This document shows, in pieces, positions 2,807-16,412 of a DNA stretch of 20,000 nt; within the stretch, counting starts at the first letter, position 1; every line of letters starts with the position of its first letter. The DNA lies in assembly GCA_000182565.2 (NCBI GenBank), contig KQ257454.1. One strand, 5' to 3'. Origin of the DNA: Spizellomyces punctatus DAOM BR117. Its lineage: Eukaryota. The notes under the pieces are model-generated. The model was given only the letters and a program-made list of their open reading frames with translations, searched no databases and had not been told where the DNA came from. Position numbers and translations under genes: made by a program.

Positions 2807-4631
2807 ATGACTGGCGGCGACAATAAATATGGAGAGGGGTCCTCTTCCTCAAATCCTGCCGAGCAGTCCACCTCAACCTCTTCCTCCTTCCTTTTTCCAG
2901 CTCCTCCCCGAACACCCAGAAAGCGAAGACGTTCAGAAGTCGACGAGGATTTTACAAAGCGCGGTCGCTTCGACCGATTTGTCGCATCGAGTATAAGTCC
3001 TCACGCAACTCCAGAACTAAGGAGTGCCTTTAGACACAATACTAGGCGTATGTACTATTGCGGCATTTGTCGTTATGTCGAATAATTCGGCTCTTTTGCT
3101 TACCTACCGAGAACTCCAAGCAGCCGACTCTCCCACTCGCTGGTCGGGAGCATCTGTGGCATTTCCAACGCCGAGCACGAGCAGCAGTAGTAATAAGGGC
3201 TCACCTTATGCGGAGGCTCTCGGGCTCGGTGGAGAAGGTAGATTCTTCCGTCATGGACCGTCCCCCACACCGCAACAGAAAACGGACGCTGAACTAACTT
3301 GGGAGCGACTCCGAATAACGCCAACGAAGCAAAGTGATAGCTCTATCCCACATACACCTCGTAGTATCAGAAAAGAGCAGCGAGTCATTCCGCGACTTCC
3401 AGAGAGGGTTTTGGATGCTCCTGGCCTGAAGAATGATTACTATATCAATGTCCTGGATTGGTAGGTCCACTCTGTCAAAGCATGTTAAATTAACAATGTC
3501 ACCAACCTGTAGCATACATGTAGGTCCGCTAACAACATTCTAGCTGTTGGATTGAACAACAAGGTTTATCTGTGGGATGCGGTAAAGTCAATCATGGTTA
3601 ACGTCCTGTCGCAATGTCTTGCGCTGACGCTTAGCGGGTACCAGGCAACGACTGCTATTCATTGTATATGGACAGTCGAAGAGCCAGACTACGTAACCGC
3701 GTGCGTCTTTTCCCCATGTGGACTTCGAATTGCGGTTGGATCAGAGGAGGGTCGCTGCGAGATTTTTTCTGTTCCTCGTCACAACTTTAAAGCTGGCAAA
3801 TGTAAAGCTCGAATTCGTCATAGGAATGGTCTGGCAGCTGCTACCTGGTGTCAGAAGGACCATAGTCTGCTTTTGACTACAGGAGACAAACTTGGAGTGA
3901 TCAGAGTATACAGTACATCTGTACGACGTCCAAACGACCCACATCCCTCGCGAACACATTGTGAGCTGTTACGAGAATGGGCACATACACATTCTGATCG
4001 CATTGTCGGGCTGCAATGGTCATCGGACAATCGTACGCTCGCTAGCGGAGGTAATGACAATTTGGTTTGTTTATGGCAATTAGAGCGAACCGAAAATCCC
4101 AAAAAAATCATCCGGGACCACACATCCGCTGTACGAGCCTTAGCGTGGTGCCCATGGAATCCTGAGTTGCTTGCTACAGGTGGAGGCCTAGAGGATCGAA
4201 GAATACGTGTTTACAATGCTAGTGGTAGGTCTGAGCAGATAACATTGGCCGCATTGCTTAGTGTACTTGTGATAAGCGACTGAACTACATTCTTAGGGGA
4301 GAAAAAAACAGAAGTAGAAACGGGATCTCAAGTGTGCACCGTCCATTGGTCCAAGGGCTATAGGGAGCTGATTTCATCCCATCACACTACAGGAGATCAG
4401 CTCATCATCTGGAGTTGGCCGAGCATGAGGGAAATCGCACGATTACCTGGACACTCATCTCGCCCTTTGTTCTTCGCCATGAGTCCAAATGGCGAAACGA
4501 TAGTGACAGGAGCCGGCGACGAAAACCTCAAATTTTGGAAGTGCTTCCAATTGCAGGACGGGCAGAGACTACTGAAGGGCCCTGAACAGGACATAGAAGA
4601 GTATAGGCGACGGGCGTCAGATGTTCGTTGA
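2807..4631 (+). CDS. CDC20: CDC20/Fizzy-family WD40 APC/C co-activator (divergent), 5 exons
   Basis: [119 protein letters not shown], ends ..ASDVR*. DYY/PER/CPW fit the Cdc20/Slp1 rather than Cdh1 subfamily. Introns about 3048-3120, 3461-3523, 3582-3644, 4225-4296. Orthology to the mitotic CDC20 is uncertain. Confidence 0.88.
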
Positions 4632-6680: not shown

Positions 6681-7635
6681 CTAGTCGATTACCATCGTTT
6701 CTTGAGAGTTTTTTGGCTGACCTGCAGCCTTCACAGCCACAGGAGGAGGCAAGTGGATGATTTTACCAGAGAATTCATCACCATTGAAGCAAAAGAAGTT
6801 ATTCAAAGGCGCATCCTTGCCGGATAACACTTTCAAAATGTCCTGAGCCGCAAATCCGCCGAGTATAGCGCACACAGGGGATATCTCCGCGCGGGCCGTT
6901 CGTGCAAAGCCTCTATCATAGATTTGTTTCCTTAACACCTGCAAATATCCTGTTTGACGCTTTCATACTTACCGAAGAAGCTCGTCGGTCACGTACGATG
7001 CATCACATTGAACTGACTTCAAGTACGGAGATTTCAATTGCAGAAGCGCATTCACATCATTACTCGAACCAGGTAACGGTAAGCGGTTATGTTTTGCCCA
7101 AAACTGCCAAAGAACTTCAAGGAGACGGGTGATTAGCTACGTGGGGACTCAAGGAAGGATACATCGAACTTACGGTTGAAGCCAAAGTATACCGGATCCG
7201 ATCCAGCCTTGAAGGCGCGAAGCTGCTGTCGGGACATCTCTGACATGCTAGTAGCACCCCAAATGCCCTGCTGTGTCTCTTCTAGGCTTGGAAATGCCAT
7301 TGATTTTTCAATCTTCTCGACCGTCACTTCATCCTTTATGGAAGATTTTCGTTCTCTATCGTCCGCATTGTAAGCAATTATGTGGAGACAGTTGGAACAA
7401 AATCCTGTGGCCGCTTACTCTATGTAAGCATGTTCCTTCAGATCGTTAAAGATGTAGCCCATTGTCCCTGCTGTGCCCGCGCTGTAGAACTTGATACCAT
7501 TATTTCGGCAGAGTCGATCAATTCGCGTCTATCAAGATATCGTAAGATGTATCGTCCGCAATGCATTGATGTCAACATGCTCTTACCATAGTTTGCAGGT
7601 CACTGTTGCAGAGACAAACAATATCATACTCGAGA
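6681..7635 (-). CDS. AOS1: SUMO-activating enzyme E1 subunit 1 (Aos1/SAE1/Rad31), 3' part; N-terminal exons probably in the assembly gap
   Basis: LEYDIVCLCNSDLQTM|TRIDRLCRNNGIKFYSAGTAGTMGYIFNDLKEHAYIE|...LLWQFWAKHNRLP...AEISPVCAILGGFAAQDILKVLSGKDAPLNNFFCFNG; stop shortly after the inactive adenylation half-domain, as in SAE1 and unlike UBA1. Confidence 0.85.
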
Positions 7636-8173
7636 NNNNNNNNNNNNNNNNNNNNNNNNNNNNNNNNNNNNNNNNNNNNNNNNNNNNNNNNNNNNNNNNN
7701 NNNNNNNNNNNNNNNNNNNNNNNNNNNNNNNNNNNNNNNNNNNNNNNNNNNNNNNNNNNNNNNNNNNNNNNNNNNNNNNNNNNNNNNNNNNNNNNNNNNN
7801 NNNNNNNNNNNNNNNNNNNNNNNNNNNNNNNNNNNNNNNNNNNNNNNNNNNNNNNNNNNNNNNNNNNNNNNNNNNNNNNNNNNNNNNNNNNNNNNNNNNN
7901 NNNNNNNNNNNNNNNNNNNNNNNNNNNNNNNNNNNNNNNNNNNNNNNNNNNNNNNNNNNNNNNNNNNNNNNNNNNNNNNNNNNNNNNNNNNNNNNNNNNN
8001 NNNNNNNNNNNNNNNNNNNNNNNNNNNNNNNNNNNNNNNNNNNNNNNNNNNNNNNNNNNNNNNNNNNNNNNNNNNNNNNNNNNNNNNNNNNNNNNNNNNN
8101 NNNNNNNNNNNNNNNNNNNNNNNNNNNNNNNNNNNNNNNNNNNNNNNNNNNNNNNNNNNNNNNNNNNNNNNNN
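7636..8173. other. Assembly gap (538 N)
   Basis: Run of N; should hold roughly the first 125 codons of AOS1. ORFs spanning it are artefacts. Confidence 0.99.
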
Positions 8174-8296
8174 CGATCGAATTGACATTGGATGGGTCAT
8201 GTGATATGCTTGGTCAGCACACGGACTGTTCTTCCCGACTGTGTGCGCTAATAAACATAGACAAAGGAATTGCAATTCACAACTTAAGAGTTCAAG

Positions 8297-10287
8297 ATGC
8301 CACCAAAGAAAGGAAAGAAGGGAAAGAAAGGCGGAGATAAGTCATCAAAAGGGGAATATCAGTTAAAGGATGAGGAGAGCAGACGGAGATATTTGCAGGA
8401 TATCAAGGATAAAGCAAAGGTAGTTTATTCGAGTCGTTTGGTAAGACGCAGGACAAAGAAAGCTTAAAGATATATTTTATTTACTCTAGGAGAGACAAGG
8501 TCTGGAGGAGAAGAATGCCCACCTTAATAACCTCAAGATCCAAAATAGATGGAGGGAAATAATGAAAGCAGGTACGCTAAGTGCTGCTTGCATCCTCTGG
8601 AAGAGTGTACAGTGAATGGCCATTATTTCATATGAGCGCAGCAAAGGCTAGGGATCTTGCACAGCAGATCGAAGTTCTGAAACAGATTCATGAGCGACAC
8701 CTCGACAGGAAGAACGCTTCAATTGAGACCCTCGCGAAGGATGTTGCAGAGGCTGAAGACCAGTTTGCAACAGCTCTGCAAGCACACTGTATAAACGTTG
8801 ATACCCTTATCGAATTGCAGTCGGCGAGACTGCAAACCTTGCAGAGTCAGTTTGAGAATGACTTGGGAATACTTGAAACCGAATTCAATGCAGAGAGGTA
8901 TATTATATTGACGTGTATCCAGAATGACTATGAACAGCGAGCTTACCTCGAGCCAGAATGAAATTGCAGACAGGACATGTGAAGGAAAAAGCAGATATTC
9001 TGGGAATCATGACAAGAATGGAACAAGAATTTCAAGACACCGAAGCGGATGCCAAGCACGAGTACTCTAGTATGAGAGATGATGTGAAGAACAAGGTTTC
9101 TTTCGCACAAACAGTTTCATTAGTCTACACCATGAACGACTTACAAGACTATTGGCTTGACCGTAGAATTTAGAGGAAAAACATGCGCTACGTATCCAGC
9201 TTGAAGGCACCGTCGAAGACTTGTGGCGACAGTTTCAGGCAGTAAGTTTTCTCTAATCTCCCAGATCACACTGGCGCAACCTAATAGTAGTATCAATTTG
9301 TGTAGGCGCTGAACCAATACAACACGTCCACCGAAGAAAGGAAGAAGCAGTTTGAGGATTTGAAACAGAAGGATCAAAAAAACGCCAAGGAGATTGAGCA
9401 GCAGATGCGAAAGCTTGTTAAGCTGCAGGTTGACTTAAGCTTGAATTGTACGCACTATGCAGCAATACAAATTGTCATACGTCTTTTTGATACAGGAGAC
9501 CATTGTCCATCTTAAAACGAAGCTAACAAACAACTCGAAAGAGTATGAAGAACGAAATCGGGCTCTCCGTGAAGAGAAGGAGGCAATTCAGTCACATTTT
9601 CAATCTTTGAAGCGCAAAATGAATTCCTTCCGGGAGGAAGAGCGCCGGAAGCTGACGGAGTTGACTATTGTCAGCAACCGAGTGATTAAAGACTTGGAAA
9701 GCAAAATTGAGAGAGCTGAAAAAATCATTAGGCTGGCGGAGATGAATAGGAAGCTGGAAACGGAAGAAGAAAAGGTTCAGCCCTTCTATCGAGAAACCTG
9801 GAAAGAAGGAGTACAGTTACAAGGGATCGCCGAAGTATGTGTCCAGGTTCATTTTGACTTCTTCTCATGAAAGCATTTGCTGAAAGATTAAGCTATTTGT
9901 AGGAATCAGCGACGGCACTTGAATTCCCGAAAGAGTTTGCAGCAATGGAGCAGTTTCATAAACGGTATAACAAAGTTAGTCTGGATCGTCTTGCCCTGGA
10001 GAAGCAAAGAGGACAGTTGCAAGAGGAAAACGAACACCTCCGCAATATTCTCAAGCAATACCTCGACGGTATCAGCGTAAATGAAACGGTGCTCGATCAC
10101 GCTAATCCACTGGTCGTGGTCAATGGTACGATTGGACTCTACAAATGCAAGAACACTGTGATCCAAATTGACGGTCATTCGTGGGTTTTTAGGACGAACC
10201 AATGCTGCCCTATCGCATCCCCACAGCCATCTCAATATTACCTATGTAGAAGCTGCACATCAACGACAGAGACTGGTCCTGTATTGA
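8297..10287 (+). CDS. DRC2: Dynein regulatory complex subunit 2 (CCDC65/DRC2), coiled-coil flagellar protein, multi-exon
   Basis: MPPKKGKKGKK N-terminus; NNLKIQNRWREIMKA|AKARDLAQQIEVLKQIHERHLDRKNASIETLAKDVAEAEDQFATALQAHCINVDTLIELQ; NLEEKHALRIQLEGTVEDLWRQFQ; LAEMNRKLETEEEKVQPFY; FHKRYNKVSLDRLALEKQRGQLQEENEHLRNILKQYLDGISVNETVL..NPLVVVN, all characteristic of CCDC65. Confidence 0.92.
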
Positions 10288-10658
10288 ATAAGACTAGGTA
10301 TCCCCAAGTGCTCGGCTCGTCGCATGAGTTCAGGTAATTACCACCAAGATATAAATATGTGTATTGGCTCGCAGCGTACGTCCTCTTTGTTGATGTTTGT
10401 AGAATACATTAAGGGCAAGTCACCATATAATTCTGATGTCAGTCTATTTGCTGTTTGCGGAATGGGACGTCTCAGTAGTGTTTGTGAAAAACGCTGCCGT
10501 GTCTACGAGGCCCCATGGATAGCTGCAGATCATCTTTTGCCAACCGCGGTTCTTAAGCGATATGGTAACAACACGGAAGGCCACATACGACCAATATATT
10601 CGATGACAAACAAACACCCTTATTCCTTGATAAATATGTGACTATATATCTTTATGTC

Positions 10659-11513
10659 TCACTTTTTGTTGCTGACAAAGGTCGCCACCAGCTTTCGATC
10701 GTGGCTCGTTGGCTGACCGACCATCTGCGCACACGACTGCAGGGCATCCGAAACATGCTTCAACACAGCCTCACTCTTCCTATTCCGCTTATCAACAATT
10801 GTGAAGCGAACCCGATACTTGTCCTCCAGCAGTTGCCGAGCTTTTGTCAACTTAATATTCAGATCGTGTGGCGAGATACTGGATCCGACTTCAAGCTCCT
10901 TTGCGGTATTAGATTTTCCGTCTTTTGGTCGTTTGACTCCACGTGCTTCAGCTTTAGCTTTCTTTTGAACTTCGTGAGATACGATACGACAAATCGGTGG
11001 GTTTTTGTCTGGGGATATCAGCAGAAGGTCATGAGTACGGCGGTTGAAAAGCGTCAGGGCTTTTTCTAGCGAGTGGGTGCCTAAGCTTTCATTCTCTTCA
11101 GAAAGAACTTCGACCGTCGTCTGAGGGATTTTCTCATTCTTGGGCGGTTTTACGAAAGTTGAAGATTTTGGCGTAGCATTTTCGCGAGCAATGATTCGGC
11201 AGACTGGGGGATCTGTCCGGTTGTTCACTAGAACTAAATCATGGGTTGTATTGTCATATAATGTGAGCGCTTTTGACAGCGGATGCGCTCCAAGGTTTTC
11301 GCTAGCAGCGGATATAACGGTAACGGTTGGGTAGGGGATATCTCGATTCTGGAGAGCTGGTGCGGTTTTAGAGGATGGTTTCGCCAGGAATGCAGGACTA
11401 GAAACCGCAAACGGTCGAGATGGAGGGGCTCTTAATTGCACACATAACGTCTGTCTATGTACCGCTGGCCTCAACATGCGGAACCACACGCAGCGGCATG
11501 ATCTTGCATTCAT
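10659..11513 (-). CDS. Mitochondrial translation initiation factor IF3-like protein, 284 aa, intronless, with duplicated IF3-N domain
   Basis: Arg-rich, acid-free N-terminal presequence (MNARSCRCVWFRMLRPAVHR..), two IF3-N-like units (NxxI..V.V....E.LG.....AL.......DL.L......PP.CRI), basic linker, IF3-C (KELEVGSSISPHDLNIKLTKARQLLEDKYRVRFTI). First ATG is 11513 (alternative M at 11477). Confidence 0.85.
   Translation of the reverse strand: MNARSCRCVWFRMLRPAVHRQTLCVQLRAPPSRPFAVSSPAFLAKPSSKTAPALQNRDIPYPTVTVISAASENLGAHPLSKALTLYDNTTHDLVLVNNRTDPPVCRIIARENATPKSSTFVKPPKNEKIPQTTVEVLSEENESLGTHSLEKALTLFNRRTHDLLLISPDKNPPICRIVSHEVQKKAKAEARGVKRPKDGKSNTAKELEVGSSISPHDLNIKLTKARQLLEDKYRVRFTIVDKRNRKSEAVLKHVSDALQSCAQMVGQPTSHDRKLVATFVSNKK
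10971..11348 (-). repeat. Intragenic tandem domain repeat, period 70 aa (210 nt)
   Basis: Unit 1 11348-11181 and unit 2 11138-10971 align without gaps, 28/56 aa identical by manual count. Confidence 0.92.
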
Positions 11514-11678
11514 TTGGATTGGAATTGTGGTCAGTGACAGAGGTAGAAGCTTGTGGCTTAGGATAGTGTATTGGCAGGCGGACGCGTACTGGTGTTTTGG
11601 AGTACTGTAGACCAATATTGGCACTTTGCAGAAAGACCTTGGACGAGCGGATTTAGCGTTAAGGAAGGATGGGCCAGC

Positions 11679-12606
11679 ATGGAGTTAGCTCTGGACCAGC
11701 TCATTGACGGTTTGCCGACAACGCATGTCTCGTTTGAAACTCTCCGAGACTTTGTCAAGAAGCGAATTGGAACTTTCCAGTATATTATCAAAATGCACGA
11801 AGGGAATTCGCACTTCTTGAGCACGGTCATCATCTCCAACGACATGCTCGTTACCATGCACCATGAGGAGAAGGCTAAAGTGAAAAAAAGAGTTACAAAG
11901 TGGTTTCATCTGGGTTATAGTATTGGAACTATTCTTGGTATTCCGAGCTCGACGGATTTCGTGCGAGCGTTCAGTCAACTCGTATCCGAGTATGAGAATA
12001 GCGATAATGACAGCCGTCGCAACCTGGTACGACTAGAAGAATCTTCTTGAGTCCTTCTTACACTGAAGATCCAAGGTATTCTCACCACTAGAAACGTATC
12101 TTTTCGGGGAAAACACCGCGAGGTGGGTCTACTGGCGATCAAACCAGTCAGCCTCCAGATGCTGGTGTGTACACTTATATGGATACCCCACACCTGGTAT
12201 GGCCAAGAATCTTGATGTACTTATTGTCCGGGCCATGAACTCACATCTTCGCGCGCCCCTGCACATTGGTTAATTCCAGCCGTTTGATATCGATCATGTG
12301 CCGACGGTGTTGGGACTGTTCGAGGTTCTCACTCTTGCCTACAGCAAGTTTACCGAAAATAGCGAGGCATGCCGAAATCAAGCATTTATCGATGCAGTTA
12401 TGAAGATTGATGGGAAAATCAAGGTGCCAAGTAATTGCGTTCGTTTGCACAGGCTGATTTCAATTCCTGACACATGACATCTTTTTTCTTTACCATTGTT
12501 AAAGAAAATTATTGGGGTTGTGATGAAAGACTTGGACTTCGTCGCCAAGAATCGTGTAAAGGAGGAATTGGATATGTTGCTTCTGACACCACCGGAACTA
12601 ATGTAA
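11679..12606 (+). CDS. Uncharacterised protein (about 230 aa, 4 exons), likely a conserved fungal family
   Basis: In-frame GT-AG splicing gives MELALDQLIDG..DFVKKRIGTFQYIIKMHEGNSHFLSTV..KWFHLGYSIGTIL..FVRAFSQLVSEYE..NL|KRIFSGK..YTYMDTPHL|PFDIDHVPTVLGLFEVLTLAYSKF..KIDGKIK|KIIGVVMKDLDFVAKNRVKEELDMLL..M*. Resembles, from memory, unannotated fungal proteins with a KRIxTxxYxxKxHEG ... P.LPFxxD pattern. Confidence 0.8.

Positions 12607-12830: not shown

Positions 12831-16412
<3,582 letters not shown>

What the first reader, a model, noticed from the sequence alone, without database searches (positions are those of the whole stretch)
10971..11348. Mitochondrial IF3 with two tandem N-terminal domains (N-N-C architecture)
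Seen: NRDIPYPTVTVISAASENLGAHPLSKALTLYDNTTHDLVLVNNRTDPPVCRIIARE and NEKIPQTTVEVLSEENESLGTHSLEKALTLFNRRTHDLLLISPDKNPPICRIVSHE lie exactly 70 codons apart, 50% identical with no indels, before one linker and one IF3-C domain. Known: bacterial and mitochondrial IF3 have one N and one C domain, and the bacterial N domain contacts initiator tRNA. Inference: the divergence, with core residues retained in both copies, suggests an old duplication under selection rather than an assembly error. It may be an adaptation to this lineage's mitoribosome or tRNAs; chytrid mitochondria have reduced tRNA sets and 5' tRNA editing.
Basis: partly seen in the sequence, partly recalled or inferred. Interest (0 to 1): 0.72.

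Follow-up and report, generated by a model that had tools for sequence, protein, structure and literature searches.

The report
Mitochondrial IF3 with duplicated N domain
A chytrid fungus encodes a mitochondrial translation initiation factor 3 carrying two copies of its N-terminal domain instead of one, an old duplication kept in several related genera, which could be used to study how this domain works on the ribosome.

Summary
One uninterrupted minus-strand ORF (CDS 10662-11513, 284 aa) reads: presequence-like N-terminus, IF3_N, a 9-residue spacer, IF3_N, a Lys-rich linker, IF3_C.

- **Both copies are real IF3-N domains.** Alone, each passes Pfam's cut-off of 26.9 bits (48.3 and 53.1). They are 28/57 identical without gaps (E 3e-21), exactly 70 codons apart. 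Both fold confidently as IF3-N.
- **N2-linker-C is the canonical factor.** It aligns with whole solved IF3 chains. N1 is the extra module.
- **The duplication is old.** Third-codon-position identity between the copies is 30% and dS is saturated.
- **It is not an assembly artefact.** The same architecture occurs in Spizellomyces 'palustris', Powellomyces hirtus and Fimicolochytrium jonesii, where N1 groups with N1 and N2 with N2. It also occurs, perhaps independently, in Irineochytrium annulatum and one unnamed protein.
- **Most chytrid relatives on record have one N domain.**
- **Not settled:** dN/dS could not be run (no relatives' DNA), RNA reads barely cover the repeat, and the function of N1 is inferred.
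- **Literature:** none of the papers I searched describes an N-N-C IF3.

Verdict: a real, conserved new variant of a known factor, of moderate interest. The proposed link to tRNA editing is untested.

The parts
10662..11513 (-). Complete CDS of the mitochondrial IF3 homologue (284 aa; stop codon at 10659-10661). It is a single uninterrupted ORF.
   Evidence: ORF list and translation. Identical 284-aa protein on record. TIGR00168 infC scores 95 bits against a cut-off of 60.
11352..11513 (-). Residues 1-54: presequence-like N-terminus (7 Arg, 2 Lys, no Asp or Glu), disordered in the model.
   Evidence: Composition; pLDDT 46-50 for residues 1-50. Mitochondrial targeting is inferred; no predictor was run.
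11169..11351 (-). N1: the first IF3_N domain (residues 55-115), the extra copy.
   Evidence: Pfam IF3_N 48.3 bits alone. pLDDT 94-96 with strand-strand-helix-strand-strand order. Modelled alone, pLDDT 89.3, and its top Foldseek PDB hits are IF3 N domains (1tif TMq 0.74, rmsd 1.6 over 58 columns; 6o6d).
11142..11168 (-). Nine-residue spacer between N1 and N2 (residues 116-124); pLDDT dips to 62 in block 111-120.
   Evidence: Identity to Powellomyces is 6/9 and to S. 'palustris' 9/9.
10959..11141 (-). N2: the second IF3_N domain (residues 125-185), in the canonical position ahead of the linker.
   Evidence: Pfam IF3_N 53.1 bits alone; pLDDT 94-98. 1tif aligns to model 121-194 with Z 10.8, rmsd 2.5. 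phmmer to 1tif_A gives E 6.6e-08.
10905..10958 (-). Lys/Arg-rich interdomain linker (residues 186-203), preceded by the helix that ends N2 (180-190).
   Evidence: 4 Lys and 2 Arg in 18 residues; pLDDT 60 for residues 191-200.
10662..10904 (-). IF3_C domain (residues 204-284). It runs to the last residue, so there is no C-terminal extension.
   Evidence: Pfam IF3_C 33.6 bits alone (cut-off 34.8; E 3.8e-08). 1tig Z 13.9, rmsd 1.5, 83 residues aligned to model 202-284.
10561..10658 (-). 3' UTR, with a poly(A) addition site near 10561.
   Evidence: RNA run X3: depth 19-29 on one strand over 10571-10798, and oligo-T loose ends before 10561 (3 reads).

Best explanation
This is a nuclear gene of a Spizellomyces-like chytrid for the organellar (mitochondrial) translation initiation factor IF3. 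Its N-terminal domain was duplicated in tandem. Shown: the protein reads presequence - N1 - 9-residue spacer - N2 - basic linker - C. Both N units are bona fide IF3-N folds. N2-linker-C is collinear with a whole bacterial or human mitochondrial IF3, so N1 is the additional module. The duplication is old and predates the split of Spizellomyces from Powellomyces and Fimicolochytrium. Inferred: the C domain and N2 do the canonical job, meaning anti-association on the small subunit and handling of initiator tRNA. N1 sits where other mitochondrial IF3s carry an unstructured N-terminal extension, and there is no C-terminal extension. It probably acts as a structured adaptor that adds a second contact of the IF3-N type. 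The single N domain of known IF3s alternates between a platform site (near uS11, or mS37 in mitochondria) and the tRNA elbow. Two tethered N domains could hold both sites at once, or raise the local concentration for either site.
For: - Architecture: Pfam finds two IF3_N stretches plus IF3_C. Each N alone is above the cut-off. infC TIGR00168 scores 95 bits, with its best stretch covering residues 160-321 of the 321-aa ORF (N2 to the end) against model positions 5-170 of 170.
- Fold: the AF2 model has mean pLDDT 84.4 and both N domains at 94-98 with the same strand/helix order.
- N2-linker-C is canonical: whole IF3 chains align only to model 119/125-284. These are 5lmn_X (Z 14.5, chain residues 3-170), 9a5a_B, and human mtIF3 6rw4_8 (model 120-284).
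- N1 alone folds as IF3-N.
- Age: codon-position identity is 0.56/0.72/0.30; only 8 of 28 identical residues use the same codon; dN is 0.49 and dS is not computable.
- Conservation: two N domains occur in 6 genes or taxa among the 278 IF3 proteins held.
- Orthology within Spizellomycetales: N1 is closest to N1 or single-N relatives (Gaertneriomyces 53%, Fimicolochytrium N1 49%). N2 is closest to N2 (Phlyctochytrium arcticum 56%, Powellomyces N2 48%).
- Constraint: N1, N2 and C keep 36-49% identity to Powellomyces and Fimicolochytrium, against 17-33% for presequence and linker.
- Expression: 3'-end RNA reads and a poly(A) site.
- Two alternative N-domain sites: bacteria (PMC8266586 passages) and plant mitochondria (mS37, then tRNA elbow; PMC12776268 passages).
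- Extensions act as adaptors in yeast Aim23 (PMC6321546 abstract and passages).
Against: - Nothing here shows what N1 binds.
- Of the three E. coli N-domain residues that touch the tRNA elbow (R25, Q33, R66; PMC9723500), both copies keep only the R66 equivalent. R25 becomes Thr in N1 and Glu in N2; Q33 becomes Asn and Ser. These residues therefore do not single out either copy as the tRNA binder.
- One copy looks eroded in some relatives. Powellomyces N1 scores 34.8 bits against 73.2 for its N2. Fimicolochytrium N2 scores 18.5 bits against 81.0 for its N1, has a 14-residue insertion and has lost the PPxCR motif. This fits partial redundancy rather than two indispensable roles.
- By their gene models, most named chytrid relatives have a single N domain.
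- RNA reads cover the repeat at depth 0-1.1 only, so the mature mRNA over 10959-11351 is not directly shown.
- The AF2 models lean on alignments of IF3 homologues.
Confidence: 0.55

Rival explanations
1. Largely redundant duplication. The tandem copy arose by unequal crossing-over and has been carried along, either by constructive neutral evolution or through mild dosage or avidity benefits. Only one working N domain is needed, and either copy can serve.
For: Erosion is reciprocal: N1 is the weak copy in Powellomyces hirtus and N2 is the weak, insertion-bearing copy in Fimicolochytrium jonesii. In Irineochytrium N2 is weaker (46.9 against 69.4 bits). By their gene models, single-N proteins occur in other Spizellomycetales: Gaertneriomyces, Phlyctochytrium arcticum and Thoreauomyces.
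Against: In Spizellomyces both copies are intact, score alike (48.3 and 53.1 bits) and are 92-93% identical between two species, the same as the C domain. Both remain detectable in every N-N-C protein after divergence that erased the presequence and linker. The single-N models of Gaertneriomyces, P. arcticum and Thoreauomyces begin inside or just before a domain and may be truncated.
Confidence: 0.27
2. N1 has taken on a different job from IF3-N on the ribosome. Examples would be binding a mitochondrial mRNA-specific activator, an assembly factor or another protein, so that the factor is bifunctional.
For: N1 lacks two of the three bacterial tRNA-elbow residues. It is separated from N2 by a short flexible spacer. 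Mitochondrial IF3 also takes part in small-subunit biogenesis in other systems (titles and abstracts listed only).
Against: N2 lacks the same two residues, as do the single N domains of other fungal relatives read, so the loss is not specific to N1. N1 is no more divergent from single-N relatives than N2 is.
Confidence: 0.12
3. Artefact: an assembly duplication, a mis-annotated intron, or one copy spliced out so that the mature protein is ordinary N-C.
For: RNA depth over the repeat is 0-1.1, so splicing is not directly excluded.
Against: The copies are only 53% identical in DNA, too different to be an assembly artefact. A 764-nt contig of another run (X1, kind not on record, same species label) spans 10780-11543 with 0 differences and 0 gaps. 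No joints were reported. There is no GT[AG][AT]G[TC] donor-like site between residues 55 and 185. The same collinear architecture appears in independent assemblies of five other taxa.
Confidence: 0.03

Closest known systems
Bacterial IF3 (infC), e.g. Thermus thermophilus chain 5lmn_X and E. coli chain 8jsg_A
   Same: It has an IF3_N fold, a basic linker and an IF3_C fold in the same order. Residues 119/125-284 align over the whole bacterial chain (5lmn_X Z 14.5, 162 residues aligned). TIGR00168 is above its cut-off. The PPxCR motif and the R66 equivalent are kept in both N copies.
   Different: There is a second IF3_N domain and a presequence upstream. The equivalents of the R25 and Q33 tRNA-elbow residues are replaced in both copies. 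The gene is nuclear and eukaryotic.
Mitochondrial IF3 of human (6rw4_8, 6neq_z) and yeast Aim23 (8om3_d)
   Same: It is an organellar IF3 with a presequence. Human mtIF3 aligns to model 120-284 (Z 12.4) and the Aim23 C domain to 200-284 (Z 10.4). These factors carry mitochondria-specific material N-terminal to the N domain (PMC6321546).
   Different: The described extensions are unstructured or helical peptides, 60 residues in Aim23. Here that position is filled by a complete second IF3-N fold. There is no C-terminal extension, because the C domain ends at the last residue. The Pfam mIF3 model scores only 21.8 bits against a cut-off of 33.8.
Kinetoplastid mIF3-1/mIF3-2 (lineage-specific duplication of the whole gene)
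   Same: This is a lineage-specific duplication affecting mitochondrial IF3 (PMC3401457 passages).
   Different: There the duplication produced two separate genes. Here a single domain was duplicated inside one polypeptide. That paper contains neither 'tandem' nor 'two N-terminal'. Its Supplementary Table S2 was not seen.

Membership tests
IF3 / infC superfamily (organellar IF3) | IF3 N-terminal domain (Pfam PF05198) | tested here: met
   There are two stretches. Scanned alone, they score 48.3 and 53.1 bits against a cut-off of 26.9. Folds are confirmed.
IF3 / infC superfamily (organellar IF3) | IF3 C-terminal domain (Pfam PF00707) | tested here: met
   The sequence score is just under Pfam's cut-off (33.6 alone, 29.7 in the whole protein, cut-off 34.8; E 3.8e-08). 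The fold matches 1tig with Z 13.9, rmsd 1.5, 83 residues aligned. The whole-protein model TIGR00168 scores 95 bits against a cut-off of 60.
IF3 / infC superfamily (organellar IF3) | Basic flexible linker joining the N and C domains | tested here: met
   Residues 186-203 hold 4 Lys and 2 Arg. There is a helix at 180-190, and pLDDT falls to 60 for residues 191-200.
IF3 / infC superfamily (organellar IF3) | One N and one C domain per polypeptide (the architecture of all solved chains matched) | tested here: not met
   There are two N domains. This is the variant feature, not a reason for exclusion: N2-linker-C alone satisfies the canonical layout.
Mitochondrial IF3 (function and location) | Mitochondrial targeting presequence and import | tested here: inconclusive
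   The first 54 residues hold 7 Arg, 2 Lys and no acidic residue, and are disordered in the model. No targeting predictor or experiment was available. One relative is annotated 'IF-3, mitochondrial' by its source (Rhizophlyctis rosea).
Pfam mIF3 (PF14877, animal-type mitochondrial IF3 model) | Score above the gathering cut-off of 33.8 bits | tested here: not met
   It scores 21.8 bits over residues 228-285 of the 321-aa ORF only. I do not file the protein under this Pfam family.
Bacterial-type IF3N contacts with the initiator-tRNA elbow (E. coli R25, Q33, R66) | Conservation of the three contact residues | tested here: not met
   Only the R66 equivalent is kept in N1 and N2. The R25 equivalent is Thr or Glu and the Q33 equivalent is Asn or Ser (alignment to chain 8jsg_A; N1/N2 register; residues from PMC9723500).
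IF3 activity | Binding to the small subunit, anti-association, start-site and tRNA proofreading | not testable with these tools
   This needs biochemistry or cryo-EM.

The most novel reading that the evidence does not exclude
The N domain of mitochondrial IF3 was duplicated at least twice independently in chytrids: once in the ancestor of Spizellomycetales and once in the Irineochytrium lineage of Chytridiales. On this reading it was kept because the two tethered N domains occupy the platform (mS37/uS11m) site and the initiator-tRNA elbow at the same time. That would replace the toggling of a single N domain with a static two-point grip suited to these mitochondria.
Probability: 0.15. Interest if true: 0.7.

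Novelty: new variant of a known kind. Interest (0 to 1): 0.5.

Why it matters
IF3 is one of the most conserved translation factors. Every solved bacterial and mitochondrial chain matched here has one N and one C domain. Current models explain its fidelity function by a single N domain moving between two sites. A natural factor with two N domains, conserved across genera and possibly evolved twice, offers a ready-made test of that two-site model. It is also an unusual way of building the mitochondria-specific 'N-terminal extension': re-using an existing fold instead of adding a disordered peptide. The reciprocal erosion of N1 or N2 in different genera gives natural single-copy-like variants for comparison. 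If N1 proves redundant, the finding is a well-documented curiosity of domain evolution.

Tried and rejected
- **Whole genome of the window:** not held.
- **dN/dS per copy:** not possible. Two scans of metagenome contigs gave 153 and 152 pattern matches but no relative by tblastn (P0002; alignment A1). No chytrid genomic DNA is reachable with these tools.
- **Word-indexed protein searches:** the single-sequence search found only the query itself among 601 candidates. The profile search was swamped by bacterial IF3: only the 8000 candidates sharing most words were scored, and it did not even return Powellomyces or Fimicolochytrium, which were in the query alignment. It therefore says nothing about how rare the architecture is.
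- **RNA:** no listed holder of the stretch is on record as RNA. The one RNA raw-read run of the same species label (X3, about 6% of it read) is strongly 3'-biased and gives depth 0-1.1 over the repeat. X4 laid nothing.
- **Domain tree:** 39 N domains, 61 columns, 7 of 36 inner branches starred, 18 open. It does not resolve whether there was one duplication or two. AU tests reject neither hypothesis. Holding the four Irineochytrium and P0008 domains as one clade costs 2.1 lnL (p 0.425). Holding all six N2 as one clade costs 14.9 lnL (p 0.12). Rows left out were Thoreauomyces (43-residue fragment) and Cladochytrium tenue (split domain). Only 5 bacterial sequences were taken as outgroup.
- **Remnant of a second N domain in long linkers:** looked for in Gaertneriomyces, Batrachochytrium, Quaeritorhiza and Borealophlyctis with my own HMM at domain E up to 1. 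None was found.
- **PMC1370609 (Laforest 2004, tRNA editing in chytrids):** not held.
- **Literature on an N-N-C IF3:** searches (0 papers; 7 papers, none relevant by title or abstract), plus term look-ups in PMC3401457, PMC6321546 and PMC3978653, found no description. Supplements were not read.

Full report
**1. What is in the sequence**

The minus strand of the window has one open frame, 10659-11624. From its first ATG (11513) it encodes 284 residues. A protein of exactly this sequence is already on record, on a 1.54-Mb contig.

Pfam finds two IF3_N stretches and one IF3_C. NCBIfam's infC equivalog TIGR00168 scores 95 bits against a cut-off of 60. Its best stretch runs from the second N unit to the C-terminus against model positions 5-170 of 170.

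Scanned separately, each unit passes the IF3_N cut-off of 26.9 bits:
- N1 (window 11169-11363): 48.3 bits.
- N2 (window 10959-11153): 53.1 bits.
- The C part reaches 33.6 bits (cut-off 34.8, E 3.8e-08).

The two units are 28/57 identical with no gaps, E 3e-21.

**2. It is not an artefact and it is old**

At the DNA level the copies are 53% identical. Identity by codon position is 0.56, 0.72 and 0.30. Only 8 of the 28 identical residues use the same codon. dN is 0.49 and dS is saturated. An assembly duplication would be near-identical.

A 764-nt contig from another public run of the same species label (X1, kind not on record) covers 10780-11543 with no differences or gaps. That run may not be independent of the assembly.

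An RNA run (X3) shows that the gene is transcribed and polyadenylated near 10561. The library is 3'-biased, however, and depth over the repeat is only 0-1.1, so the mRNA structure there is not directly shown. No joints were reported. No strong donor-like site lies between residues 55 and 185.

**3. Fold**

An AlphaFold2 model built on a 70-sequence alignment has mean pLDDT 84.4.
- Residues 1-50 are below about 50.
- Both N units are at 94-98, with the same strand-strand-helix-strand-strand order.
- pLDDT dips at the 9-residue spacer (62) and in the basic linker (60).
- The C domain is confident.

VIA-align placed whole IF3 chains on model residues 119/125-284 only:
- T. thermophilus 5lmn_X: Z 14.5, chain residues 3-170.
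- 9a5a_B: Z 14.4.
- Human mtIF3 6rw4_8: Z 12.4, model 120-284.

The isolated N-domain structure 1tif fell on 121-194 (Z 10.8), and the C-domain structure 1tig on 202-284 (Z 13.9, rmsd 1.5). So N2-linker-C is a complete canonical IF3 and N1 is extra.

Modelled alone on a 38-sequence alignment, N1 gave pLDDT 89.3. Its best PDB matches were IF3 N domains or IF3 chains: 9a5a_B, 1tif (TMq 0.74, rmsd 1.6 over 58 columns) and 6o6d. Both models rest on alignments of IF3 homologues, which favours this outcome.

The C domain reaches the last residue, so there is no C-terminal extension. The first 54 residues hold 7 Arg, 2 Lys and no acidic residue. That looks like a presequence, but no targeting predictor was run.

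**4. Relatives**

A full HMMER scan of 1.84 billion representatives gave 2127 hits at E up to 0.001, of which the best 150 were listed. Names came from three cluster look-ups covering 30 proteins.

The 90% cluster mate of the window's protein is from Spizellomyces sp. 'palustris' (92% identical), so the window comes from a Spizellomyces-like chytrid. The neighbouring genes are ordinary eukaryotic nuclear genes (CDC20-type WD40, MCM, a flagellar coiled-coil protein).

Every one had at least one hit, and 9 rows had two:
- Two rows are the window's own gene (P0001, P0002).
- Two are alternative models of Powellomyces hirtus.
- One, Cladochytrium tenue, is a single domain split by an insertion.

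That leaves six genes with two N domains: the window, S. 'palustris', P. hirtus, Fimicolochytrium jonesii, Irineochytrium annulatum (Chytridiales) and the unnamed P0008. Pfam agrees for four of the five relatives scanned. It reports one stretch for F. jonesii, whose N2 carries insertions.

Single-N proteins, by their gene models, include:
- Gaertneriomyces and Phlyctochytrium arcticum.
- Rhizophlyctis rosea (two paralogues) and Borealophlyctis.
- Polyrhizophydium, Entophlyctis and Quaeritorhiza.
- Batrachochytrium (two species) and Synchytrium.
- Cladochytrium replicatum, Rozella and Coemansia.

These are listed. The models of Gaertneriomyces, P. arcticum and Thoreauomyces begin inside or just before a domain and may be truncated. 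I could not check their DNA. The 278 proteins are the top hits of my searches, not a census of IF3.

**5. One duplication or several**

Within Spizellomycetales the copies behave as orthologous sets.
- Spizellomyces N1 is closest to Gaertneriomyces (53%), Fimicolochytrium N1 (49%) and Borealophlyctis (48%).
- Spizellomyces N2 is closest to P. arcticum (56%) and Powellomyces N2 (48%).
- Fimicolochytrium N2 is closest to Powellomyces N2 (42%).
- The N2 set shares the S-H-[ED]-x-Q start of the linker helix.

In the maximum-likelihood tree the Spizellomycetales N2 domains plus P. arcticum form one clade, but without support (44/0). This points to one duplication before Spizellomyces and the Powellomyces/Fimicolochytrium group separated.

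For Chytridiales:
- The N1 domains of P0008 and Irineochytrium group strongly (100/94).
- P0008 N2 joins them (97/78).
- All four domains share a G-P-G/T turn (three have G-P-G, Irineochytrium N2 has G-P-T), as does the single domain of Cladochytrium tenue. The Spizellomycetales domains do not.

This favours a separate duplication in that lineage. With 61 columns, though, the AU test rejects neither a single ancient event (14.9 lnL worse, p 0.12) nor the independent one (2.1 lnL worse, p 0.425).

**6. Constraint**

Between the two Spizellomyces species, N1, N2 and C are 92%, 93% and 93% identical, and the presequence 87%.

| Region | Identity to Powellomyces and Fimicolochytrium |
|---|---|
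| N1 | 37-49% |
| N2 | 36-46% |
| C | 41-47% |
| Presequence | 21-33% |
| Linker | 17-28% |

Both copies therefore look constrained in the Spizellomyces line. This is indirect evidence; dN/dS was not possible.

Against full indispensability, one copy is eroded in some genera. Powellomyces N1 scores 34.8 bits against 73.2 for its N2. Fimicolochytrium N2 scores 18.5 against 81.0 for its N1, with a 14-residue insertion and loss of the PPxCR motif. Irineochytrium N2 scores 46.9 against 69.4 for its N1.

**7. How it may work**

In bacteria the single N domain alternates between a platform site near uS11 and the elbow of initiator tRNA (PMC8266586, passages). In plant mitochondria the N domain reaches mS37 early and later holds the tRNA elbow (PMC12776268 preprint, passages). 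Yeast Aim23 has a 60-residue N-terminal and a 32-residue C-terminal extension that act as adaptors to the mitoribosome (PMC6321546, abstract and passages).

In the chytrid protein the place of the N-terminal extension is taken by a whole IF3-N fold. I infer that N1 supplies a second contact of the same kind, so that both N-domain sites can be held at once or with higher avidity. This is inference only.

The three E. coli residues that touch the elbow (R25, Q33, R66; PMC9723500, passages) do not discriminate between the copies. Both keep only the R66 equivalent. Read by eye, the single N domains of other fungal relatives also lack the R25 equivalent.

The editing itself is documented for Spizellomyces.

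**8. Novelty**

The papers I could search contain no N-N-C IF3.
- Search listings (no paper) gave nothing relevant.
- The survey of mitochondrial initiation factors reports only whole-gene duplication of mIF3 in kinetoplastids, and holds neither 'tandem' nor 'two N-terminal' (PMC3401457). Its supplementary table was not seen.
- PMC6321546 and PMC3978653 hold no such statement.

Public annotation names these proteins only 'hypothetical' or 'IF3 N-terminal domain-containing'.

I rate it a new variant of a known kind. It is real, conserved and mechanistically suggestive, but it sits within a well-understood family and its function is untested.

Noticed in passing
window 7001-8300: This is an AT-rich island (GC 0.29 at 7001-8000 and 0.36 at 8001-9000, against about 0.46-0.49 elsewhere). 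It has long overlapping ORFs on both strands. The one ORF scanned (7606-8337, + strand) has no Pfam hit.
   Followed up: no
window 9457-10436 (+): A convergent neighbour gene, in several exon-like ORFs, encodes a coiled-coil protein with a 'sperm tail C-terminal domain' hit (NYD-SP28_assoc, 27.2 bits, cut-off 27). RNA reads carry oligo-A loose ends behind 10430-10436, so its poly(A) site lies about 125 nt from that of the IF3 gene (10561).
   Followed up: partly
window 11670-12047 (+): A divergent neighbour ORF of 126 aa has no Pfam hit. Its ATG lies 157 nt from the ATG of the IF3 gene, so the two probably share a short bidirectional promoter region.
   Followed up: no
P0007 and P0013 (Rhizophlyctis rosea): This chytrid has two separate single-N IF3 homologues (234 and 165 aa) on different contigs. 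That is a whole-gene duplication rather than a domain duplication.
   Followed up: no
P0216 (Cladochytrium tenue, partial): Its single IF3_N domain is split by an Ala-rich insertion of about 27 residues between the helix and the third strand. The protein is rich in Gly and Ala runs.
   Followed up: no
P0005 (Fimicolochytrium jonesii), P0153 (Powellomyces hirtus): Erosion of the duplicated domains is reciprocal: N2 is degraded and carries insertions in Fimicolochytrium, while N1 is the weak copy in Powellomyces.
   Followed up: partly
P0012, P0018, P0022, P0006 (Quaeritorhiza, Batrachochytrium spp., Gaertneriomyces): These single-N chytrid IF3 homologues have unusually long N-to-C linkers (about 45-80 residues). 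My HMM found no detectable remnant of a second N domain in them.
   Followed up: partly
window 3552-4280 (+) and 13912-14427 (-): These are exon-sized ORFs with CDC20/Fizzy-type WD40 hits and MCM P-loop/lid hits. They are ordinary nuclear housekeeping genes flanking the locus.
   Followed up: no
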